Positions 23,001-64,000 of a stretch of DNA of 64,000 nucleotides are shown piece after piece; the stretch's first letter is position 1, and each line of letters opens with the position of its first letter. The notes under the pieces were generated by a model. It was not told the origin of the DNA. It searched no databases and was given only the letters and a program-made list of their open reading frames with translations. The stretch comes from Daphnia carinata. Lineage: Eukaryota. The DNA lies in NCBI RefSeq assembly GCF_022539665.2, contig NC_081332.1, forward strand, positions 1,984,001 to 2,048,000. Direction: 5' to 3'. The position numbers and the translations under genes were made by a program.

Positions 23001-26000
23001 GTACGAAGACGATGTTTGGAACTAGTCAAACAGCAGAGGCCAAAAGAAGGGGGAAAGCGAGGTTGCTGTATAGCCCAAATCGAATCTCTTTCTGCGAACA
23101 AGTTGATAGATTATCTCGATGCTTTTTTTTGTAGCGAAATGTAATCTTTTGTGGAGATTTTTTTTTTTCAAGTGGAAAGATCAGACCTTAAGCATCATTT
23201 CGTCTGAGAAGCAGATTATAATAGTTAAAAATGAAGTTCTACTTGAGTTCTGACTGATGTTAACACGGGGAGTACTTGGGATCAAATCGCATATTTATCA
23301 TCTCAATATTTTTAGATATTTTGATTAAAAGGATCTTTTTTACTATTCAAATTTGTAGTTTTTGTAAATTATAGGTCATTGGCCAGCACTTAAGATTAAA
23401 AGATGTTCGCGAAAAGCAACAACCGGTAGCGTCAATAAATCGACTGGAACTCCAAGACAAATAAGAAATTGGTACGACGACACAGAAGAAAGAACAACGA
23501 AAAAGGAATCAAAACTTCCAACTGAGCGTGCACTAAAAAGAAAAAAAAGAATACGAGAACGAGGTGAGGTTTTGCCGTGCACGCCGAATCGATCGTCGAT
23601 CCCTATCATCCCGTTCTTCTTTTGTTTTTTCCTTTTCTTGTTACTCACGACGCCAGTGAAACGCACGAATGTCTTGGCACGGGGAGGAGTTAGATACACA
23701 CTTTCCATTTCAAAAGCAAGGAAGCATATACGCACACACTCTGTAACAATGGTGTTTGAAAAACTTGTGAGCTCACGAAATAAAAAGAAATGTTTGCCTG
23801 CGTCTTTTCGTGTTTACCCACTGTCTACACCATGTGTGCTAATTACTACTGCACGTGTTTCAAGCCTCATTAGATGTGTTTTTCTAATCGAACTTTTGTG
23901 AGATATGCAAAATGTAGTTCATTAAAGTTTGCCCTCGTTGCCTGTCGAGTAGGAAAACACGTTTTTTTTTTTATATTTACCTGTCAATGCTGATGGCCAC
24001 CAAGTTGAGGATGGACGATGTGCTGCACGTCACGTCCATGGCGATGTAGAAGTCGCAAACGACGTCCAGAAGATCCCATTTGGCGTTCACCTGAATCCAA
24101 TGACATCAAAAAATGACACGTATTAAATGATGCAATTCTTTCGTTCCTATTTTTAAACTACATTCACGGTGATATATAAAACAACTCACGCGTGTCTGTG
24201 CCTTTTTTTTTTTCAAATTACCAGATAGATGTCGTATATCATTTACACAGTACGAACATTCCACGGCGCAACTTAATTATGTTGGATCGGTTTTTATCCA
24301 ATCAACGGCCGTCTTTTTTAATTTCTCGAGCAATTTGCAAAAGTACGTTGAAGAACCCAAACAGCGAACAAGCAACAACATTTTAAATGGGGTCATCAGA
24401 CAAACGATTTACTGTGATTGAGCGGGATAGAAAAGATTGATTGACTTACTTATTATGCACGAATATACAGATACAAATCGCTGCTGTTGGCTAATCTCAA
24501 TTGAATAATTCACAACAAGAAAATCAGATCTCTCCGTTAAAACAGTAGAAACAAACTAATGGCTGCTCACCTAGTGTCTCTGCTAAGTTGAATTAAACTT
24601 AAATGCTTCTTTGAAAGTTCACTTCCCACTGCGTGCACAATTACATCTTTACTGAATACTGGGAAACTGTTGCAATCTGAGTCCCTTAGGTGGCCAGCCC
24701 TTTCACGGTGAAGGAAGGGTAAGAAACAGAAAAAAGCTTTCATGATCGTGGGAAGTGTGGGAGGGGAGAACTAAATTTTGATGCCAAATGTTTTGTGCTC
24801 TAGGGAATTGATTGTGAAAATTTGTTGAGCGCCAAATGCCAAGAGTTTCAAAGACAATGTGATTTCCATAATGAAGGAGGTGGGGGAAGCAAACAAAAAA
24901 CAAAGAAAAACAAGTTGTTTTTGATTTCGAAACGAAAACAATATGTAAATCTTTCGAAGGTCACCCAAAAAACAAAGAAAAAAAAACGCTTTCAAATGAA
25001 CAAACAAAAAAATATTCTAATTTTGCCTAATCCCTTAGAAAAACATTAGATTGATGTACTCTTTCTATAACCACGTAGCTTTAATTAATGAGACAGGGAT
25101 CTACTTGATTGAAGAATGACTCACAATTGGGCACGGGTCAAACGAAAATCTATCTCCCCCCCCCCACTCTATTTTTCGTGTGTGGTGTCTGGTTTACCTA
25201 TGGCTTTGTGTAAAACATATAGCGGATTAAAAGTTAGGCCTTATTAGCTCACTACATGAGAGAGAAGGGAATCGAACACAAGCCCTCAATGTTGTAAACA
25301 ACAACAAAAAACTAACGTACCTTTCGAGAGCTAACGAGCTTTTCTTTTTCCGAGAAAACAACGTAAAGAACACTCAACTGGGCGCTTAATAAATACAGAA
25401 GACGTCATCAGGTTGTGAAAGCATTATAATCATTGGCAGCCCCGATATTCTACGCCTATTGTCTTCGATTCTCTTCTCCAACACATGTGCGATATCGGGA
25501 GGCCGCCATTAGACGCGTATAGAATGAAGCCTTAGGTCATATGTAATTAGAAGACATCTTCGTCGTTTCGAATATATCACCGTAAAAAATAATACGAAGC
25601 CCGTAAGTAAATGAGGAGCGGGTTTGACGGCCGTTAATAGGCAACTGAGGCCATCAATTTTAGTTTCAAGATTTTTTTTTTATTGTGTCTCGCCTTGCAT
25701 TGAGATCTGGTTTCACTTTTAGGTTAAAAGACGTGGGTGCCGTCCATTTTTAGGGGATTTAATAATAGCCATAATAATAAAGGTAAAGTAGCACATTTAC
25801 AGGGTTAACTGTTTTCGGCCACCTCGGAGAAGACTTAAATTAATATAGTGGCTCGTGTTTCTCTCGTTTAGTAATTCAATTAGATTTATAGCCTAATAAT
25901 GAAGCCAATTAGTTTTACGGCTGTATATAAATAACCATTAAGACTTTTAATGAAAATCGCTTGGACGATCAAGCTGAAGCTCTGGGCTGTATAGAACTAA

Positions 26001-51300: not shown

Positions 51301-52620
51301 TGTCGCGCGTTTGTGCAGCACGAGAATGTTGCTTCCTTATCTAGCTATCGATATAAAAAAAAAAAAATTGACAGCGAAATACGTGAACAAAAAAGAAAAA
51401 GAAGAAGAAAAAGGCTCGGTCGCAACAGGCTGCGCAGGCACTCGTACAGGCATAGACCGTGTAACGAGGTCGCATACCAACCGAACCGAATAACTCGATG
51501 ATCATTTAGCTTCCAGACGTTGTATCCATACAATTAGAGAATAAGGACGGGGATTTTTGGCAGCATTCCTACTTGCCAATATATATAGTATAATACGAAA
51601 CTTGGCTGGCGTATTATTGCTCACGATACGTAAAGACAAATAGGAAAGCTTTGTATCCTTCGTTTTGCTATATCCCTCGAAGAAATGCGACCCCCTAATA
51701 CTGCTCCCCCCCCCCCTTTTTTTTGTGTGCGTGTGTGTTAACATTCTAAACAGATGGTCAAACGTGGAGACTCTCACCGTGACGTAAACAGCGAACGGCA
51801 TGACCAACGTAGCGACAAGTAGATCGGCGATAGCCAAACTGATGATGAAGTAATTGGTGGCCGTCTGCAGGGCCCTCTCGCGATACACGCTCAGGATGAC
51901 GAGCACGTTGCCGAAGACGGTCAACAACGGGAACAAGAAGAGCAAGAGGGCCCAGAAATTTTTGGCTTCCATGTCGTCATCGTATCCGTCGATGGTGCCG
52001 TTGGTGTAGTTGGACACATCATCGACGGCCGTCGTCAGGCAGGGCATGCGATTCGGCGCGGCGGACGTGCCGTTCAGGACGCAGCCGGCCGGAAAATGCG
52101 TCGTGCTGTTCAGGTAGGACGAAGCGTCGCGCCAGGTGGTCGTCGTGCTGTTCAACAGCTCCGTCACGGAGCCCAGCCAGTTGGATTCGCTCCGATTGTT
52201 GGCCGTCTTCCCCCTGCCGAGGTGCGTCCAATCGGAGAGCGTCGTGCCGCTGTTGCCGCCGCTCCCGCCGGGCGCGTTGATGCTATTGACGTCACTGTAG
52301 TGCGTGTCGTGAGGTGTTCTCGGGTAGTAGGCGCTACTGGTGCTGGCCCGACCCAACATGGCCGGCCGACCGGCCACGGTAGGTCGAACGAGACGCAGCG
52401 CGCTTCGCTTCGTGTTGAACGCGAACGAGCCGGCCGTTGGGTCGCCGTCGGCCGGTGCCGGCTTGGCTGCCGTCACGCCGCGCACAACGTACCCTTGAAT
52501 TCTGGCCATTTTAGATGAATACCGTTTTGTGCTGGACGCTGTCACTGGAACGACGACCGACGTCACGGTGGCCGTCGTCGTGTCCGCCAACGCGACCGCC
52601 GCTGTCGACAGGCTCTCCAT
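11730..52620 (-). CDS. Dop2R: D2-like dopamine receptor (class A GPCR), about 800 aa, 8 coding exons
   Basis: Exons (minus) 52620-51778, 24090-23981, 20106-19854, 14141-13767, 13690-13551, 13393-13165, 12255-12018 and 11944-11730 have consistent phases and total 2403 nt. Motifs: [32 protein letters not shown], amine-binding Asp in [22 protein letters not shown]5 serines [40 protein letters not shown], and a very short C-tail [10 protein letters not shown] typical of D2-like receptors. Alternative in-frame ATG at 52629. Confidence 0.9.
12265..12308 (+). repeat. Poly(A) run of about 44 nt, which is the poly(U) acceptor tract of Dop2R exon 7 on the minus strand
   Basis: Homopolymer ending a few bases before the aatag acceptor at 12256. 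Confidence 0.9.
13165..14141 (-). CDS. Dop2R: Dop2R ICL3 exons 4-6 (14141-13767, 13690-13551, 13393-13165)
   Basis: [15 protein letters not shown]...DQGSGSQ | D7NNGEE...STEFML...AHLG | NKVPPSG...NGDSNY...KRMK. Phases 0/0, 0/2 and 2/0 are compatible. The exon 6 acceptor is weak, so exon 6 is less certain. Confidence 0.75.
19854..20106 (-). CDS. Dop2R: Dop2R coding exon 3 (ICL2, TM4, TM5)
   Basis: tgcag|(R)[10 protein letters not shown]...[23 protein letters not shown]|gtaata. Confidence 0.92.
23981..24090 (-). CDS. Dop2R: Dop2R coding exon 2 (ECL1-TM3); 110 bp, missed by the ORF track
   Basis: ttcag|[37 protein letters not shown]|gtaaat. Confidence 0.92.
36090..36115 (+). repeat. (GT)n microsatellite
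   Basis: About 13 GT units seen directly; one of many SSRs (e.g. (TA)n at about 6974-6999, (GA)n at about 43318-43342). Confidence 0.85.
51778..52620 (-). CDS. Dop2R: Dop2R coding exon 1 (long extracellular N-terminus, TM1-TM2)
   Basis: Lies inside ORF 51502..52671. Acceptor ttccag places the exon start at 52672; donor ACG|gtgaga at 51777. Encodes [18 protein letters not shown]...VMPFAVYVT. Confidence 0.9.
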
Positions 52621-55600
52621 GGCTATCATCACTATCCGCGTGTATTCCCGAAAGAACTGAACTTGGGACACTCTGGAATTTTGAATGATTAAAATTAAAA
52701 TTAAAAAAAAATAAATAAAAAAAGAACTCGGCGAATTTTTAGATCAGCCGCTGGAAGTTTTCCGTGTACATCCCGACCGATTCCATGGCTATGGAATAAA
52801 AAAAAAAAATCAAAACGATCGACGTTCGGATTTCACATTTTATTTGATTCTCTTTTCAATTAGTTCGCACACAAAATGCATAATTGCACGCCACTTTTCA
52901 CGATAATTTCGTCGCCTTTTGATACGCTCTTGAGATGTTCCGCTGTGAGACTTGGGCGGATGTCGGACGCTATTCAGCTACACTCCATCGTCATCGATGT
53001 ATATTTGCGCACAATCAAAGAACTCGATTACAAGTGAACAACTCTGGCCGGGCGAACGCAGAGCGACGGAAGCGAAGATGCGACTGCACGTCCTACACAA
53101 TCCGCACTAAAGTTTCTATATCTTGTTGTCGCGCCCTCCCTCTTCCTTCCTTGGCGGATGTTCAATCGGCTTTAGATATAGTGTGTGTATATACGTATCG
53201 CATATACCTTTTCGCTGCGCTGCCTGGACTGAGCGGCAGGACAGGCGACACATGCGCACGCACTCAAATGCCGTCTGCATAATACTCTGTCGAATATTCA
53301 TATACGAAATATATATATACATATCCTAGATACAAGCTACTAGATTTTAAAAAAAATAATAAATAAAATGGACAATGACCAGCATCATCAGTTGAACAGC
53401 TTCACTTTGAAATACGAGCCTCTAATCGGAAGAGTATAGACGAACATCTACATGATGGAGACAGGCTTAACTTTTGCGGGAGAAACCATAGAGCTTGCCA
53501 TAAGACCACACTGGACCCCAACAGGATGTTCTACTCTTGTCGTTTCGGAGAAGATGATGTTTACAAGATATTTCGTTAAGGGGAAATGCCTCGCGATCTT
53601 GGATTTAATTGTGATAAATCAACTTTAAAAAAAGCGTAAATCCCATATCCGTTGGCTGGTCTTCGTATATATATACTGTATATAGGCTGTGTTTCAAAGA
53701 TTTGAAGAGGACATATCTTTTGTTCAACGAGACGTCGAACAATTGTCTAGGTGTTTTTTTTTTGTTTTCTGTTTTTGGTGTGGTGGAATGTTCTGGAAGA
53801 TGAGGCTACATACTAATCTGGCGAGTATACGAAATGAATTCAGCCATCCGTGTATTTTTCCATTAGTCTAAAAGATCATGGGCTGACGAATCAAAGCGAG
53901 CACTTGTCGAGCGTGTGTCTAGATAAAATGGGCGAAGGCGTTGAGTGGCCAGGCAAGTGCGTGCTGTATGGCTATATATGCGTGAAAAGTATATAGAGTT
54001 GACACTGCGCGGTGCACTTGCCGCATGTGTCATTATAAAAAAAAAGAAAAAAAAAAAAAAGAAAGGGCGCAATGAAAACTGGAAGAGACACGACAAAGAC
54101 AATGACGACGCGGAGGGTCGTGTCGTTTGTAATGAAATGTGTGTCGCTTCGCGAACGTTACTCGCGCGGATTACATGTATAGGGCTATATAACCGGCGAG
54201 CATCAAGACTTAAGCTTTCACCACCACTAGATATAGCGCCGCCGTAGAACATATATACTCTCGACTGCTTTCTTTTTCGGGTTTAACTACATCATTGGCC
54301 GACCTTAAATCGCGTATAACTATGGCCTACCTTATCGTGGTCGGTTTGCGTTAAAACGAAAAAAGAAAAAAGAGATTCTAGGGCAGTTTCTTTTATTTAG
54401 ATATGCAGTAGGCGCGTGTACACGTATTTCTTACTTCTTTCTTTTTTGTCATTAAACAAAAGAAGAAAACTTTTACTTTGGTATACAGCAGTTTTATTCA
54501 CGGTGACGTATACGCCGTAACCTCTATAGAATCCCTAGCGTGAGAGGCCATGATATACTTCCCTGGCGACCTTGCTCTTGGTAAGGGCTTTTCTTATTTT
54601 TATTTTGCATATCATACCGCCTCTACGTCTTTGCATATACTTCTTGAATAAAACAATGCTCGTGGCATTGCACTCGTTCTCATACAGGAGGTGCATGCAG
54701 TAGAGGGGTGGGTCGGCTAGGGCAGCAAAGAGCTCATTATATGAAATAGTATGACAGAGACAAAAGGTACACGTATAGAGTCACGTATATATAAATGTAG
54801 TAGAAACAGGAAAGCTTTATTGCAATATATAGCCCATGGCCAGCACATACGAAATTTCAGAGATGTGTATGTAATGAGTCCATCGTTTTCGTTTCAACAA
54901 CACGAGTTTGCCAGCAAAACGGACTTTATACTTCGAGGAGGGGCATCGAAGGGAAACAATGAGCAATTCGCATTTTTAGAGCCCCTCTATGTCCTGATGA
55001 GATGTTATTACATTTAGGTACAACCCTGCGAATTCAGAGAGCAAAAGGGTACGAAAGTGGATGGGTAATATTAAGCTGTTCGAAACCTATTTATTCTGTA
55101 AGGTTCACAATCACAATTGAAGATCTAGTTTTAAAGGCTCTGTTTATGTAGTATTTCCTTGGATTTTTAAAGAATTCTTTATCTCTGAAGATACATTCAT
55201 CGCGTGCCCTTTCGTCTATACTGTGTTATCGTGCTCTTCGCCGCGTCAATGACGACCCGCACTGGTCCCCTCCGTATGAAAAAGCCTATATCTTCTTTAA
55301 TGGTTGGGTGCAATGCTTATATAGACTTATGGCAGTGTAAATATAAAAGGAAGCGAACGTAGAGGTGTCAATACAACTTACGGCCACTGCACTGATGCTG
55401 GCCGATAATAAGCCGGGCGTTTCTTTTACGCCTTTGTGCGTCTCCGTCGTTACGGTTGTCCGTGCGTCAAAGATATGTTGTACTTGTCTGCTGCTTTTTA
55501 TACGGAAACACACAATGGACGGACACCGAACAATATCAGGCGGTAAAAATAAAAAAGAAGGAGGATAAAGGAAAACACGTTATTTAATGTTATGAGAGTG

Positions 55601-56099: not shown

Positions 56100-56890
56100 C
56101 TATAAGCCCAATATAAAAACAAACTTGATTTTCGTGATTCGCGTTCCATTTTGAATCGAAATCATGTATTTTAAACTGTATTTAAAATTTTGCCAAAAAT
56201 GAAAAAGTGGGAAGGCTATAGCCTTCTCATTTTTGTCAAAATCGGTCAAAAACGAAATCTCTTGGAATTGGATGAAACTCACACAGTATAATGAAAATTG
56301 AACGCTGATTTTGATTCAGCTATTAGTTTTCTCCTTAACCCAGCCGTTTTGATAATAAAAGAAAAGAGTGAACTTCTTTTGCGCCGTACTGATAGTGATT
56401 CAAAAAACGATTGACTTAATAAAAAAATGACAATTTTGAATCGCATTCGTACCGTACTAGTAAGTGTAATTTTTTGGCGCACAAAATAGCGTTATCAAAT
56501 ATGAAAAATCGATTTCCGTGATAAGCATTCAATTTCGAAAAAAACGATTGACTTTTGTCAAAATCGACCAAAAACGAAATCTCTTGGAATTCGATGAAAC
56601 TCACACAGTATAATGAAAATTGAACGCGGATTTCGATTCAGCTATTAGTTTTCTCTTTAACCTAGCCGTTTTGAAAATTTTGTCAAATGGCGCGCAAGCG
56701 TTATCAAAAAAATTTAAAAAACGATTGACTTAATGAAAAAAATCTTATACTGTATATCTTCTCATTTTTGTCAAATCGGCAAAAATGGATATCTTGCGGA
56801 ATTTCATCAAAATCATTTATTTTGATGCAAAATTCAATGCTGATTTCGAAAAATGCATTTGTTGTGTCGTCAAGCTAACTGTTTTTGAAA
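56100..56890. repeat. AT-rich element with internal direct repeats of about 120-130 bp; probable non-autonomous DNA-transposon remnant
   Basis: Near-identical units at about 56230-56352 and 56553-56674 (ttttgtcaaaatcg..aaaaacgaaatctcttggaatt.gatgaaactcacacagtataatgaaaattgaacgc..gattcagctattagttttctc..aacc.agccgttttga). A diverged third copy sits at about 56759-56888, and aaaaaacgattgact occurs three times. No ORF; the transposon origin is inference. Confidence 0.7.
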
Positions 56891-57184
56891 TAAACATAAG
56901 CAATTACCGGGCGAATTTTCCCTCAAAAATCTGCAAAATCTGACATTCATTGGAATTTTCTTCAAATCACTAAACATACTCAAAATTATAGCTCACCCTT
57001 TAGGACAAGCCGTTTTCTCGGTTGGTGTGAGCGGCCAGCTGATCGGGGCACAAATTCTTTTGAGGCTTAATAACTTATTTTATCACGAAACCTAATTATT
57101 TGATTATATCGTTGAACGCCATTTTACGCGAAAGATATATGTATTTTTAAAGGTGTCTTTGGAATGACTAACAACGCAAAATGT

Positions 57185-57263
57185 TGCCTAGGTTGAACAA
57201 ACATCCGATCATCACCACTGAAAATTCAGTTTCGGTAGACAATTATCATAGTATTCCTAAGCA
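57185..57263 (-). promoter_or_regulatory. SECIS element (type II) in the SelL 3' UTR
   Basis: Minus strand: tgcttaggaatact-ATGA-taattgtctacc-gAAA-ctgaattttcag-t-ggtgatgatcg-GA-tgtttgttcaacctaggca. It has an AUGA/GA core, an approximately 11 bp helix II, unpaired AAA, an apical ministem ctga/tcag, and helix I tgcttagg/cctaggca plus gaata/tgttc. It starts about 22 nt after the TAA. Confidence 0.85.
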
Positions 57264-57285: not shown

Positions 57286-58554
57286 TTATGTTTTTATATT
57301 CCGTAGAACATCAAGCATCTCTGTAACATTAGGTCTGTCCGATGGATACTGACAAGCGTAGACGAACACCATTTTCCCGTGTTGATTGAAAATTACATTT
57401 CCCGCCATCTGTAGCGTGGCGTTAACAGATCAGAAATTATGTTATTTTGTTTTTTCAATGTCGTATCACCTGAAGTGGATCATCGATATAATCGGTAAAC
57501 GGCTTCGGTAGTTCTGTACCAACAGCTAATTCTGCGCTATAAAAAAGCATATTCGCAATTCTCCACACCTGCAATCACACGTGAGGGTTAATTGCTTGAA
57601 AGTATGAATATTTAAGGTTCACATGCCTGATAAAGGGAGCGTTTGAACTGCAGCGCCTTGTAAAAATGACGGTCGAAATCAGTCCATATTGGGAAAAGGC
57701 AACCAGTTTCTTTTTGCCATCTTAAGGCTCCATTCTGACAGCCAAATGAGACGACATGGATATCGCAATTCAAAGAAGCAAATGAGTCCTATTCAATCGG
57801 AAAAGATTATTTGAAAATTAAATAATGGAAAATGTATAAATGAATCATACTTTCTGTTCTTCAATATGCTTTATATGCTGCCGTCAAGGTAGTCAGGCAA
57901 AGTGGCGGAGAAATACAAAAAGTGAATATTTGTTGTTATTCGTTATTTGCTTTACCATTGACACAGTATTATCATTGATCCTAGTTAAAGATAATGAGGA
58001 AATCTGTTGTTCGTTGGCAGGGTTCTTATTTTCAGAACACATCTTTTTCTCCATAAACTCGTCGACCGTTAGCAGAAATTCGTCCCATTTTTCCTGGGTG
58101 GAGAGACATGAAAAAAAATAAAAATCAATTGAGTCTTCATTGTAGTAACTGAGGTACAAACCTCAACCAGAAGAAGTTCTTCAACAGCATCCCTTATGCT
58201 ACATTCTGAAAAATAGCTTGCCCACAATTTCTCCAAGGTATCTCGTTTTTCACATCCAGAACTAGTTGTCAAAACAGAAGTTTGAGGTTAACTATTATTT
58301 GAATGTCTTTCAATAATATTACTTTTTGAAAAGAAGCGAATAGCAGTTGGTAACTCGCCATAACATACCGTAGTCTTTCGTGACAAATTCATCAGGGTTC
58401 CCTGTGTAGTTCACATGTTGATTGCAACATAAAGATAGAGCTTATAACTATCTAACTTATTACAACCTGAAAAGCGTAGCTCAGCTTCCACTAGAATTTC
58501 TGTGATTGCAGCTGCTGTTTCTGCCAATAAGTTAGACAATTCAGCAGGATTCAT
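57286..58554 (-). CDS. SELENOL: Selenoprotein L (thioredoxin-like/AhpC-TSA fold, UxxU motif with two selenocysteines), about 297 aa, 7 coding exons
   Basis: Exons (minus) 58554-58467, 58401-58323, 58261-58162, 58093-57851, 57788-57627, 57568-57470 and 57408-57286 join in frame. Exon 4 reads SLFVFLRHFA-TGA-L-P-TGA-RQHIKHIEEQK. The frame continues through family motifs IHVVSFG, FPIWTDFDRHFYKAL, LPKPFTDYIDDPLQMAGNVIF and YPSDRP. An in-frame TAA just upstream fixes the ATG at 58554. A SECIS lies in the 3' UTR. Confidence 0.9.
57884..57895 (-). other. SELENOL: Two in-frame UGA (selenocysteine) codons forming U-L-P-U (57895-57893 and 57886-57884)
   Basis: Minus strand reads GCC TGA CTA CCT TGA CGG, exactly at the CxxC position of the RHFx-CxxC redox motif. 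Confidence 0.9.
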
Positions 58555-61021
58555 CCTTTAGAAAATATCTATACAAAAAAGAAATGAGTAATAGTGCATT
58601 ATTCTCCAGAACTGGAAATCAATGTTCAAGACTACCAAGCACCCAAAGTTACTTCACAGTCTGTGCTAGTATTGGGGAGTAAGATGACTATCTAAAAATT
58701 TTTACATGTATTGATATTTTACATTCTGGCAAAACTTGCTATGCCAGGTATGTGGGATCTTTCATATTCTACACTCAGTCAACACAGAACCTAGCTTTGT
58801 TGTTTTATAAATGATTCAATAGGAAATACAGCTTGAAGTTACATTATACTTCTAACCTTATCATCAACTGCAAAAATATTAAGTACGTACCAAGAATTTC
58901 TTTCTTTCCGTTGTGGACGATAACAAAATAGTCGCGTCCTTACATGACCTTTATCAACGCACAGGAGCATTAAGTTTAGTTACGGTCGTGCGGCAACTTA
59001 GTCAGTCGATTGGCCGTTATCTCAGTTAGAATGCTTGGTGACAAGACCAGGTATATCGAATCGGTACGATGTTGGCCAATAAATTTGGGTTATTATGAAG
59101 TGTTGCCCAGATGAAAGGAACCGAAAGATTAACTGTGAATTTTATGTTTGATTAGGGACAAACAAAACAACTGGTAAACTTCAAACTCATATGGCCAACG
59201 ATTGCGTTCTAAGAAAGGTTAGGCTCGTTGTTGACAGATGGCAGGACTTGTAAATGCAATGAGTCATGAGTTCTTCTAAAGGGGAGCATCAGCTGATAAA
59301 GTGAATAGCCAAGCTGGGATGTGAATAAGTAGCCTGTTTATATATTTTCTGCATCACGAACGTAAGTTGTAAAAACACTTTAAATATCTGATTTGTGTTG
59401 TGCTGTTTATCGATCTCTAAAGTCCCCTGCTTCAATTGTAACTTAGTTCTAAGCACCTTCGTTCAATTTTACATGGAAAAAGTACTAAGTTATCTGGCTA
59501 AATCACCTGGCTGTGTTAGTTGATGCCCATGGATGTCACCAGTTTCGCTAATTTAAATTTCAGGTTATTTCGTTAGGCAGTATCTTTTTCTAATAAAACG
59601 TAAAAATATTAGTATATTTTCGTCTTGTTCACTAGTGTCACCAGTAGCTACAAAGTATTTATAAATGTTTTCCAAACTTGGCTTGCATTATTTTTAAACG
59701 CCGTTTTCCCACATGGGTGTGATCTGTATTGCATCAATCAATCAAAACCTGCTGCATCATAAAGCTCACGCTGTAGAATTAAGCATGCAGTGACGCAGTC
59801 CGCCTCTGGTTTCAAAGAATAGCATTTAGTATCGTTTAACAGTTTTGTCATCCATCATTGTCTTCGGTCCAGGGTTGTCGCTCTATTTATTATTATTTGT
59901 GTTTGTGTATTTTTCACTTGTTTGTTATTTTCATTTTGCTATTTTGGATTCTAGTTCGGAGCTCTAAGACCGATGCTAGGAATGCTCAAGTGTAGGCATT
60001 TGACACGTAATAGTTCCATGCACGTTAAGCAAATAACAACTACGTTTTGTGGGCATTCCTGCATCCAGTGAAACACCTATTTTCTAATTTTGGCATTATT
60101 ACTTGTTTGGGCTCTTCGCCCAGTTTGCGCGTGAGAATGCGTATCATTAATTCGTTTCCCCAGCACTGCAACCGGCAGGGCGCTTGTGCTATTTATTTGT
60201 TTCAGAATCCATCACCTAAATCAATGTATGTAAAACAAAATAGCCTTGAAAAGCGACCTTATTCTCTATAAGGATGTTTCAGTTTAGGTAACTTAAGTGT
60301 TCGAGGCTATGCGGCCTACCATTTAACATAAATATTTGGCATCCAAGATAAACAGTTCGTCCTGAAACATAACGATTGCGATATACAAGCGATGATACTT
60401 ACTTTGATTCGAAAACATTTTCCTCAGTATGACGTTATGTAATAATTTTCTATTTATCTTGAACTTTCAGATGTCTAAGGGACTAGGATAAAAAGAAGGA
60501 TAGATTCAGATTCCACGAGACCCGGCTACTGCCAAGGCCAGCAACTGGAATAAACCTATGCGCAAATAAAAGACATTCCGTCACGAAAATAAACTATTCT
60601 TGCGCAGACGTGCAGGTCCTAGGTGCATGGGCAAAGCTTCAGAACTGAAAACGCATCAACCTTCGTCAGGTCGTTCGCATTGGAAGCTTTAACCGTGTTC
60701 ATTTATACTTACAGTGCCAATATTAGGTAAATATTAAACCATACTATTCACATCTACTGGATTTTCCGAGTTCTAGTCAGCGATTCTTACGTGATATTCA
60801 CGTCTGTTACTCATTGCGAATAACCGCATTTTTTCCACAAATTTGTTGTGCAGGAACAACGTCATTGTCTTCCAATGCAAAGAAATGGGCTTCGTAAGTA
60901 TTTCTTCTTATGTTTGTAATGTTTGCAATATCAATTTCTAAAAACACAACATTCTTTCAATGTAGAAGGAAAATAAGTAGGATACTGCGCATTTGTCGCT
61001 AGCCCAACTCTACGATTCGCA

Positions 61022-64000
61022 ATGTCAGAAGGAGCCCAAAAAATTGGCTTAACTAAGCCAACTGTGTTTGCAGCTGTGAATGGCAATACACCGTCGCATA
61101 GCAGCAACAATCCGCCTGCAGTGATACCCAAATTCAAGATAAGTCGAGGCACTCAAGCGAACGTCTCTGTTCCAAAAAACGTGACAAAGTTTTCACCACC
61201 AGTGCCTGCTAAACCGGCTGCTCTTTCCAAACAGCCGAGATCACCTGCACCGCCAGTGCCGCCGAAACCAGGATCAGCCCTAAAATCTCCACTCAAACCG
61301 GCTGTGGCGCCCAAGCCTATCTTGCCCCCTAAACCTCTCGTCAGACCTTGTAAGTCTGGAAGTGTTACATTCGAAACTACAGTGCCACCAAACGTTCCGA
61401 TACGCAATCGCGGTGAGCAATCCCCTCGTGCCGATCAAACAGAAAAATCCATTCCCATGTATGAAGAAAAAGTTCCTATAAGTTCAGCACATCTTGTAGT
61501 CAAGCAATCCCGAAAGAGCGCCAGTCTGGGTCGTTTGGAAGGTGTGCGATGCTGTGCAATGCTCGTCAAAGAAGGAAACGAAAGGTGTTTGCAACGGGAT
61601 TCTGGTTTCATATCCTGCAGCCTGGAAAATGTTGAACAGCCTGCTGTAAAACTCACCAACCAACGTCTAGGCTTCCCTTTTAGCTCTATTCCCATCGCTC
61701 CACCTAGAAGACGAAGGAAGTCAGTCGAGAGTTATGAACCAATTTACGCTGTTATTGATTTCTCGAAGAAACGTAATCGACGGATGTTATTAGCGCAAGA
61801 ACAAGCAGCTCGGGACAACCTGCATCAACCAATTGTGCAGAATGCTGATAAAGATATCGAAGCTAGTCCTGTTAGTTTGGTTGAAAAAGACAAAAGTGTA
61901 CCAACAACCCCTTCAGTTTGTTCTGTCAATGAAGACGAAACTTCTGTGCCAGAGAGCCCAGCCTTAGAAATGGATGTTTCAAATTCGATGATCGCCACCA
62001 GTGAAATGGATTCGGATATCCAAATAATAGAAAATTCTTTTGCTACGATTGCTTCTCTATTTGAAAATATTAATGATACTGGTGATAGTGTACCCGTACC
62101 TTCCCGACCTACATTAACTAGGGAGTCGGAGGATGTGCAGGAAGATTCGAGCTCCTCTTCCAACAACCAGCAGGAGGAAGAAACTACTACAGCTGGGCAA
62201 GCAGTTATTGCCCGCCTGGTATTCGGCGGCACAGTAGTCCAACAAACGGACATTCTACCTGTAAGTTTTGGGTTTTTCATACGAGGGATTTTCCTAACCG
62301 GTAGTAGATAAGCAAAAGTTCATTATCAATTCGGTAGACAATGTCCACAAACGATAATAGAAGAAAACGAACAAAAGAATTCTGCACGGCTTTAAAGGAC
62401 GTCATACCGTCAACGGGTTTCGACTTGTTGACTGACACCGTATCCGTCCGCGAGCGGAAAATCAATCTTCGCGAACCAAGCCCAACTCCATCGGCGAGCA
62501 GTAACAGCAGTAGCGATAGCAAAGAAGACGAGTTTTTTCCTGGCAAGCACTTTGATCCAGACGTTGTATCTTGTGGCAGCTTAGGTAAGAAACGAATAAC
62601 AATTTTTATCGTGTGTACAATCTTTAACTGACTGAATTGGTTCCAGGTGATGTTGACACTTCGGACGCCACACGCCAGAATTCTGTGGATGATGAGATTG
62701 AAACTGCCCAAATGACGGGAAATGCCAGCACAAGTGTAGATGGAAAGGAGAGAAGAAATTCATTTGGACTCCGTCGTACGCTAGACACGCTTTTCACTTC
62801 CTTGAGTAACAAATCAGGTATTCGGAAAGCCGCCGAAAAGCGTAAAACCCTTGACTTCGATAGCTCAAGCACAGATACGGATAGCATAACTGCTGCGCCT
62901 CGTCCGCATATATTCATTTCTCGTCCAGCTCCTCCTCAGCCTAGTCATAAATTCAATAGAGGTGATCGGTATGTTGGCTATCATATATTAATTTTTGTTT
63001 TTCTCGTGATTTTAATTTATTCGTTCTTATTAATTTCTCGTAGAGCATACAGATCAGTCCAACCACCTGAAAAGGGAAGATCAAAAAGCATAGATGGGAG
63101 TCTAGTTGAAAAAGTGGACAGAAGGCACGTTTCACTCAGCCCCGTGATTAGTAGTCCTGAACCCGTTGCGGCTCAACAAGGTCAGATTGTTAACCTTGAT
63201 CAACCAGAGTCTTCCTCTTCGGCTTCTACTCATAATTACGCAAATGAACCAGGTACTTTTTTATCGGTAGATTGTTACCTGTTCATTAGGATATAGTCCG
63301 TTAAGAAAAATTTTATTACTAGGATTGTGTCTTCCGTTGATGGAACAAAATTCTGATCGAACTAGGGCATGTTTACCTGATGGTTCGTCTTCGGAAATGG
63401 AAAAAGACATTATGTACCGTTCATTGGAAGGCAAGGAAAGAAAAGCTTACATGACAGCAAAGGAAATTGCAAGTTCCGAACGTGTGTTTGTGGATTGCCT
63501 TCGACTTATCTGTGACGATTTTCGTCAAGCTGTCAAGGATGCTGCCATTGGGAGTAATGGCAGAGATACATTACATCCTGTCATCCCCGAAGCAGAATTG
63601 AACAAAATTCTCAATTATCTCCCGCAGCTGCAGAACCTTAATCACGAATTGCTAAATGATTTCGAATTGCGTCTCAAAAATTGGTCCACTCAACCGAAAA
63701 TCGCTGATGTCATTGTTCGCAAAGGACCGTTTCTCAAACTCTATTCGGCATACATCCGCGATTTCCAAAGCCAATCCGCCCAACTGGAAGAATGCATCCA
63801 AAAATATCCACGTTTCGCCAAAGTTCTCAAACAATTCGAACAATCCGGCAGATGCAAGAGTCTTTCGCTAAAACATTATATGCTTAAACCTGTGCAGGTA
63901 TTTTCTGTTCTGTCAAGCAGCAATGTGAATTCATTTTAATCTAGTATGGTTCTTAGCGACTACCGCAATACCGTCTTCTTCTGGAAGTCTATCTCCGGCA
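61022..64000 (+). CDS. FYVE, RhoGEF and PH domain-containing protein (FGD family, FGD5/6-like), 5' part; truncated by the window end
   Basis: Exons 61022-62260, 62338-62584, 62647-62968, 63044-63252, 63323-63897 and 63957->64000 join in frame. Pro-rich N-terminus (PPVPAKP, PPVPPKP, PAVAPKP), then a DH domain: KAYMTAKEIASSERVFVDCLRLI...ILNYLPQLQNLN...IADVIVRKGPFLKLYSAYIRDF...LKHYMLKPVQRLPQYRLLL. PH and FYVE domains would lie outside the window, so the subfamily call rests on the DH sequence. Confidence 0.85.

What the first reader, a model, noticed from the sequence alone, without database searches (positions are those of the whole stretch)
57185..57263. A single type II SECIS that must serve two closely spaced UGAs
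Seen: AUGA...AAA...GA with a pairable helix II (aattgtc-t-acc / ggt-gatgatc), apical ministem ctga/tcag and 8 bp lower helix tgcttagg/cctaggca, about 22 nt after the stop and about 450 nt downstream of the UGAs in the spliced mRNA. It independently supports the Sec reading. I saw only one SECIS, so one element would drive two Sec insertions two codons apart, a useful model for processive UGA recoding (inference).
Basis: partly seen in the sequence, partly recalled or inferred. Interest (0 to 1): 0.75.

Follow-up and report, generated by a model that had tools for sequence, protein, structure and literature searches.

The report
Selenoprotein L SECIS, water flea
This conserved RNA hairpin sits just behind a likely water-flea gene with two in-frame UGA codons and likely directs selenocysteine into both, an ordinary arrangement already described for selenoprotein L.

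Summary
The element is there as described (minus strand, 57263-57185): AUGA, G·A/A·G core, 9-pair helix II, AAA, ministem, 8-bp helix I, 22 nt after the stop and 439-462 nt after the two UGAs. It is not a significant Rfam hit: SECIS_1 aligns end to end at 15.4 bits against a cut-off of 35. The support is comparative. Spliced RNA contigs of a 90-95% identical relative (one study) carry it with 2 of 79 changes against 9 of 37 in the flanks, and keep both UGAs. A 45%-identical homolog has the same hairpin, with a compensatory ministem change. The gene is a 297-codon UxxU protein of the selenoprotein L (SELENOL) type. Its closest named relatives, in Daphnia magna and D. sinensis, are annotated as ending at the first UGA. 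One SECIS serving SelL's two Sec codons is already in print (PMC3316567). The scan has noted SelL-like genes on other DNA before. Small additions: UGA-C at the second UGA in 65 of 67 homologs, and one SelL locus with two SECIS. Real but ordinary.

The parts
57185..57263 (-). Type II SECIS-like element in the 3' UTR (whole hairpin, helix I to helix I)
   Evidence: anatomy; Rfam SECIS_1 full-length, 15.4 bits, below cut-off; 2 of 79 changes in a relative; homologous element in L048
57203..57249 (-). SECIS core: AUGA 57249-57246, GA 57205-57204, helix II, AAA 57232-57230, ministem 57229-57218
   Evidence: 0 of 47 listed changes in the relative's contigs
57893..57895 (-). First in-frame UGA (predicted Sec156); public Daphnia annotations stop here
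   Evidence: unchanged in the relative's contig
57884..57886 (-). Second in-frame UGA (predicted Sec159), followed by C
   Evidence: UGA-C in 65 of 67 distinct homologs
58467..58554 (-). Coding exon 1 (from ATG 58554)
   Evidence: model; matches the N-terminus of P0003, P0004, P0007; RNA contig joint
58323..58401 (-). Coding exon 2
58162..58261 (-). Coding exon 3
57851..58093 (-). Coding exon 4 with the LRHFA-U-LP-U-R motif
   Evidence: NF040769 positions 23-50, E 5.9e-9
57627..57788 (-). Coding exon 5 (AhpC-TSA_2 domain part)
   Evidence: (PF13911, E 2.8e-6)
57569..57626 (-). 58-nt GC-AG intron
   Evidence: joint 57567/57626 in 3 of 3 runs, with 4 letters of slack; the GC donor is the placement that keeps the frame
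57470..57568 (-). Coding exon 6
57286..57408 (-). Coding part of exon 7, ending in TAA 57288-57286; the exon continues through the SECIS
   Evidence: NF040769 positions 139-172

Best explanation
This hairpin lies in the last exon of a seven-exon selenoprotein L-type gene with two in-frame UGA codons two codons apart, and it is likely the single SECIS element that recodes both to selenocysteine. Shown: the anatomy, the position in the last exon, splicing and retention of both UGAs in a close relative, and the homology of protein and hairpin. Inferred from the established eukaryotic pathway: the G·A/A·G core forms a kink-turn that binds SBP2, which recruits eEFSec with Sec-tRNA. Acting from the 3' UTR, about 450 nt away, it supports decoding at UGA 156 and again at UGA 159. 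Each event competes with termination, and the C after each UGA likely weakens that termination. The product would be a 297-residue thioredoxin-fold (AhpC/Prx-like) protein whose UxxU motif would form a diselenide, as reported for SelL. Failure at the first UGA would give the 155-residue fragment that databases annotate.
For: Element anatomy. Only strict descriptor hit on both strands of 64 kb. Rfam SECIS_1 aligns 1-64/64 in the right register. RNA contigs 90-95% alike, from 3 runs of 1 study, show joints at all 6 introns (all 6 in X3), and one contig per run carries exons 5-7 and the hairpin together. In them 2 of 79 positions differ in the element, 0 of 47 in the core, 9 of 37 in the flanking UTR (Fisher p 5e-4). 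One of the 2 changes turns A-U into G·U in helix I; the other is in the internal loop. The contig over 57850-57940 has 1 difference, not at a UGA. L048 (44.9% identical over 292 aa) has a 177-nt 3' UTR ending in an A run with one SECIS 47 nt after its stop. The best blastn match of that UTR in the window is this element (78% over 51 nt, E 2e-4), with an identical 14-nt 3' arm and an A-U to U-A double change in the ministem. 75 of 118 pattern loci are homologs by tblastn; in intronless ones the frame usually runs 133-147 codons past the second UGA. NCBIfam SelL_rel_redox matches exons 4, 5 and 7 in order, and L048 passes its cut-off (125.5 against 120). Literature: PMC3316567 section 14, PMC13134290, PMC8704476.
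Against: The Rfam score is 15.4 bits against a gathering cut-off of 35, and is not significant. Folding z-scores are modest. There is an A·C mismatch beside the quartet and a bulge in helix II. The RNA evidence is contigs of a relative from one study; no single contig spans from the UGAs to the SECIS (two X3 contigs overlap at 57850-57869), and the 3' end is not shown. Of 12 intronless full-length eukaryote-like homologs, 5 show no SECIS candidate in the sequence held (177-2608 nt) and 1 shows only a CC-type candidate. No record named 'selenoprotein L' was returned by the protein searches, so the family call rests on NCBIfam, the motif and the literature. No Sec incorporation was measured.
Confidence: 0.9

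Rival explanations
1. The SECIS is real but is not enough for two insertions: the second UGA mostly terminates or is read by a near-cognate tRNA, or a second element or coding-region signal that I missed is required.
For: The element scores poorly against Rfam SECIS_1. One SelL locus, L036, has two SECIS copies. C after the second UGA is near-invariant, which would also favour near-cognate read-through. 4 of 16 homologs have a stable hairpin just after the second UGA (z below -2).
Against: No second stable candidate within 3 kb downstream or in the gene. The window's own 50 nt after the second UGA are unstructured (z +0.38). A single SECIS is reported for SelL (PMC3316567). Keeping UGA rather than a Cys codon at both sites in many homologs argues that Sec is what is selected; the search pattern required both UGAs, so it cannot count Cys forms.
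Confidence: 0.07
2. The first UGA is a true stop, the gene makes the annotated 155-aa protein, the downstream exons are non-coding or decaying, and the hairpin is chance.
For: Public D. magna and D. sinensis records end at this codon. Loose SECIS patterns occur by chance about 7 times per 64-kb strand.
Against: Exons 5-7 keep an open, spliced frame that matches AhpC-TSA_2 and SelL_rel_redox. The hairpin is more conserved than its flanks and homologous to the L048 element. The UGAs sit at the CxxC-equivalent redox position: P0024 reads CxxC there in its record.
Confidence: 0.02
3. The sequence is a box C/D snoRNA-like RNA (AUGAU and CUGA boxes), not a SECIS.
For: On 151 nt, SNORD50 (16.6 bits) and sR7 (14.5 bits) score near SECIS_1.
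Against: Both scores are far below gathering (42, 37). The sequence is exonic 3' UTR in spliced contigs. The helices and their conservation follow the SECIS layout. Both RNA types use a G·A kink-turn (recalled), which explains the weak cross-match.
Confidence: 0.01

Closest known systems
Selenoprotein L (SelL/SELENOL) mRNA and its single SECIS (Shchedrina et al. 2007 PNAS 104:13919; paper not held, known here through passages of PMC3316567, PMC13134290, PMC2397514, PMC3473315)
   Same: Two Sec two residues apart, Prx-like/thioredoxin fold, one SECIS in the 3' UTR, aquatic animal host.
   Different: This copy is from a Daphnia-like branchiopod. I found no paper naming a Daphnia SelL in the listings (one search showed 20 of 70, 20 of 112; tables and supplements were not seen). 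Its SECIS has an A·C pair beside the quartet and a bulged helix II, and scores below the Rfam cut-off.
Eukaryotic type II (form 2) SECIS, Rfam RF00031 SECIS_1
   Same: AUGA, G·A/A·G core, helix II, unpaired AAA, apical ministem (the form 2 definition is recalled), helix I; full-length alignment to the model.
   Different: 15.4 bits against a gathering cut-off of 35; the apical part is longer than the model consensus.
Selenoprotein P (SELENOP) multi-UGA recoding
   Same: Several UGAs in one mRNA decoded under 3' UTR SECIS control.
   Different: SELENOP has 10 or more UGAs and two SECIS elements, with documented processivity (PMC5133445, PMC8704476 passages). Here there are two UGAs and one SECIS, and processivity is unmeasured.
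NCBIfam NF040769 SelL-related redox protein; Pfam PF13911 AhpC-TSA_2
   Same: Exons 4, 5 and 7 match NF040769 in order; exon 5 passes the PF13911 cut-off (28.1 against 27).
   Different: The exons were scanned apart, and their scores sum to 79.5 against a whole-protein cut-off of 120. The protein has an N-terminal extension of about 120 residues outside the model, shared with the eukaryotic homologs.

Membership tests
Eukaryotic SECIS (type II) | AUGA and GA placed to form the non-Watson-Crick quartet with tandem G·A/A·G | tested here: met
   UGAU 57248-57245 opposite GGAU 57206-57203; by sequence position only
Eukaryotic SECIS (type II) | Helix II of about 10-12 bp above the quartet | tested here: met
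   9 canonical pairs, one A·C, one bulge
Eukaryotic SECIS (type II) | Unpaired AAR in the apical part, 11-13 nt from the core | tested here: met
   AAA 57232-57230; the MFE fold pairs the third A
Eukaryotic SECIS (type II) | Apical ministem (form 2; definition recalled) | tested here: met
   CUGA/UCAG, 4 bp; A-U to U-A double change in L048; unchanged in the close relative
Eukaryotic SECIS (type II) | Helix I and internal loop below the core | tested here: met
   8 bp; one change in the relative keeps the pairing
Eukaryotic SECIS (type II) | [quoted passage not shown] | tested here: met
   439-462 nt; in spliced contigs of a relative; minimum spacing from PMC3316567
Rfam RF00031 SECIS_1 | Score at or above the gathering cut-off, 35 bits | tested here: not met
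   15.4 bits; the 5 matches on homologous loci also miss it. Not filed as an Rfam family member.
Eukaryotic SECIS (type II) | Binds SBP2 and supports Sec insertion | not testable with these tools
   needs a binding assay and a reporter
Selenoprotein L (SELENOL) | Two in-frame UGA codons two residues apart (UxxU) | tested here: met
   kept in the relative
Selenoprotein L (SELENOL) | Prx-like/thioredoxin-fold domain around the motif | tested here: met
   PF13911, NF040769; full-length homologs match PF00578 and PF13911; by profile, no structure predicted
Selenoprotein L (SELENOL) | Single SECIS in the 3' UTR | tested here: met
   one stable candidate in 3 kb downstream; the mRNA 3' end is not mapped
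Selenoprotein L (SELENOL) | Orthology with a named fish or tunicate SelL sequence | tested here: inconclusive
   no record with that name was returned; homolog L048 passes the SelL-related NCBIfam cut-off; the supplement that may hold invertebrate SelL sequences was unreadable
Selenoprotein L (SELENOL) | Diselenide bond between the two Sec | not testable with these tools
   needs purified protein

The most novel reading that the evidence does not exclude
SelL mRNAs carry a dedicated double-recoding cassette: a sequence-constrained SECIS (14-nt 3' arm identical between proteins only 45% alike) plus a selected UGA-C context at the second codon. Together they would make the second insertion far more efficient than the first, so the ribosome is committed to finishing the diselenide centre. 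This would be a minimal two-codon counterpart of SELENOP processivity, and lineages such as L036 would have solved the same problem by duplicating the SECIS.
Probability: 0.12. Interest if true: 0.55.

Novelty: new member of a known kind. Interest (0 to 1): 0.2.

Why it matters
Mainly an annotation fix. Daphnia, a standard ecotoxicology animal, very likely has a full-length two-selenocysteine SelL that public records cut to 155 residues and call uncharacterized. The principle of one SECIS for two close UGAs is already published for this family. The gene would be a handy test substrate for the efficiency of a second Sec insertion three codons after the first, but fish SelL offers the same.

Tried and rejected
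(1) Rfam at gathering and at E up to 10 on 2 kb gave no SECIS hit. (2) A covariance model from 3 homologous SECIS (L036 twice, L061) recovered only its 3 training sequences and one antisense match among 18 loci and did not find the element in the window (only hit 25540-25591, 18.3 bits, E 0.34). It also missed L029, L080, L037 and L048, so it is too narrow to count either way. MAFFT alignments of 6-7 elements were out of register, so no broader model and no pair count was made. (3) No conserved hairpin follows the second UGA: window z +0.38, and 4 of 16 homologs below -2. (4) Exon 5 alone found no homolog in the word-indexed search. P0019 had no significant solved-structure match. (5) The RNA contigs stop at 57137-57141, but contigs of one study cannot show a 3' end; the first AATAAA downstream is at 56821. 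Not used as evidence. (6) The runs' label 'crustacean metagenome' was not used as habitat evidence. (7) 11 of 12 homologous 3' UTRs gave no blastn match to the element; their best hits (E down to 0.001) appear to be A/T-rich noise, so the E 2e-4 of L048 persuades mainly by landing exactly on the element. (8) No whole genome is held, so the Sec machinery, other selenoprotein genes and paralogs of this organism were not checked. (9) The original SelL paper and two processivity papers are not held.

Full report
Observation. Pairing by coordinate: helix I has 8 pairs; the quartet is U·U, G·A, A·G, U·G; helix II has 9 canonical pairs with an A·C beside the quartet and a bulged U; then GAAA, and a 4-bp ministem closing a 4-nt loop. 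Helix I starts 22 nt after the TAA, and the two UGAs lie 439-462 nt upstream in the spliced model. Stability is modest (z -2.41 and -1.98). A loose descriptor is not enriched in the window (9 hits on two strands against 7.0 per shuffled strand). The strict version leaves only this site, against 0.275 per strand in 40 shuffles; I set those thresholds knowing the element. Rfam gives nothing at gathering or on 2 kb. On 151 nt SECIS_1 aligns over its whole length in the right register, but at 15.4 bits, E 1.7, cut-off 35. Taken alone, the sequence is suggestive but not proven.

The gene. Seven exons (58554-58467, 58401-58323, 58261-58162, 58093-57851, 57788-57627, 57568-57470, 57408-57286) give 297 codons with two internal TGA in LRHFA*LP*R. 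The introns are 58-68 nt, five GT-AG and one GC-AG. Exon 5 matches Pfam AhpC-TSA_2. Exons 4, 5 and 7 match NCBIfam SelL_rel_redox at model positions 23-50, 53-103 and 139-172; exon 6 matched nothing. The nearest named proteins are from Daphnia magna (87-88% over 155 aa) and D. sinensis (86%), all called uncharacterized or hypothetical and all ending at the first UGA. The organism is therefore probably a Daphnia close to these (inference).

Transcript evidence. Three RNA runs of one study hold contigs 90-95% alike to the window, so they come from a relative. They show joints at all six introns (all six in X3; three joints have a few unplaced letters). One contig per run carries exons 5-7 and the hairpin in one piece, so the element is exonic and downstream of the stop in spliced RNA. 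A second X3 contig covers 57850-57940 with one difference, at 57923, so both UGAs are kept. No single contig spans from the UGAs to the SECIS. The tool listed 17 of the 24 differences in the last exon piece (those away from the piece ends): 2 of 79 in the element, 0 of 47 in its core, 9 of 37 in the flanking UTR (plus a 2-nt insertion) and 6 of 94 in coding sequence. Element against flanks gives p 5e-4. One change turns an A-U of helix I into G·U; the other is in the internal loop.

Distant homologs. 75 of 118 match the model protein by tblastn at E up to 0.01, 61 at 1e-5. They include intronless bacteria-like genes, intron-bearing genes and transcript-like contigs. In 10 of 13 hand-picked intron-bearing loci a GT follows 11 codons after the second UGA, the position of the window's fourth intron. 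Of 12 intronless full-length eukaryote-like homologs, 5 have one clear SECIS candidate, 1 (L036) has two, 1 has only a CC-type candidate, and 5 have none in the sequence held. Rfam SECIS_1 marks 5 of these candidates, on 4 of 11 loci given, all under its cut-off. L048, 44.9% identical in protein and above the NCBIfam cut-off, has a 177-nt 3' UTR ending in nine A with a single SECIS. It aligns to the window's element with an identical 14-nt 3' arm and a compensatory A-U to U-A change in the ministem. A covariance model from three other elements was too narrow to find any unseen SECIS and is uninformative.

Codon context. The Arg codon after the second UGA begins with C in 65 of 67 distinct homologs, and in 41 of 41 of those under 47% G+C. 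The conserved Arg of RHF begins with C in 31 of 41 of the same set, other Arg codons downstream are AGR in 40 of 65, and 34 chance matches split 15 C to 19 A. The homologs are related, so these are not independent counts. Nucleotides next to a UGA-Sec codon affect recoding (PMC8704476), and a single C after UGA is a known read-through signal (abstract start of PMC3159437). I read this as selection for weak termination at the second site (inference). No conserved hairpin follows the UGAs.

Mechanism. Shown: anatomy, location, conservation, and a homologous single element in L048. Inferred from the known pathway (PMC8704476 passages): the kink-turn binds SBP2, which brings eEFSec with Sec-tRNA. 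Because a eukaryotic SECIS acts from a distance on any in-frame UGA, one element can serve both codons. Whether the second insertion is coupled to the first is unknown. The product would be a UxxU thioredoxin-fold protein able to form a diselenide (PMC13134290; PMC2397514).

What is known. [quoted passage not shown] That paper is not held and I saw only its citation. SelL is listed for sponge, placozoan, cnidarian, annelid and amphioxus (PMC3473315 passages) and for Ciona (PMC2874816 passages). D. pulex has tRNA-Sec and 16 selenoproteins (PMC5330540 passages); that passage does not list them. Also seen as passages: PMC4244043, PMC2500217, PMC7539508, PMC2398784, PMC5133445. Searches for a Daphnia SelL (the last two listed 20 of 70 and 20 of 112) showed no such paper in their listings. 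Supplementary tables that I could not see, such as that of PMC3473315, may list it. The scan's notes hold nothing near this place but two SelL-like genes from other genomes.

Verdict. The SECIS reading is likely right (0.9). The single-SECIS, two-UGA arrangement is a known property of selenoprotein L. This is a new member of a known kind, currently mis-annotated in its named relatives; interest 0.2.

Noticed in passing
L036:584-643 and L036:832-891: A SelL homolog with two similar SECIS elements, 30 and 278 nt after the stop, both matched by Rfam SECIS_1 (34.4 and 30.9 bits). A possible exception to the one-SECIS rule for SelL; an assembly artefact is not excluded.
   Followed up: partly
window 57626-57569 (-): 58-nt GC-AG intron, spliced in 3 of 3 runs of a relative.
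   Followed up: yes
window 57883 (-) and homologous loci: The base after the second UGA is C in 65 of 67 distinct homologs, although AGR Arg codons are common elsewhere in these genes.
   Followed up: partly
L028, L051, L056, L059, L072: Full-length UxxU homologs with no SECIS candidate in 177-2608 nt downstream, even with a relaxed scan: truncated UTRs, misassembly or non-canonical elements.
   Followed up: partly
L005, L006, L008, L012, L031, L045 and similar: Intronless, 55-64% G+C, bacteria-like SelL-related genes with the same LRHFA-U-LP-U-R motif.
   Followed up: no
window 56223-56849: Local degenerate repeats downstream of the gene: 56231-56356 matches 56553-56678 at 94%, with a weaker third copy at 56758-56849.
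   Followed up: no
window 51502-52743 (-): Open frame ending in what looks like the first two helices of an aminergic G-protein-coupled receptor (resemblance recalled, not tested).
   Followed up: no
window 60977-63939 (+): Exons of a gene with a proline-rich start and a region that looks like a RhoGEF (DH) domain (resemblance recalled, not tested), divergent from the SelL-type gene.
   Followed up: no
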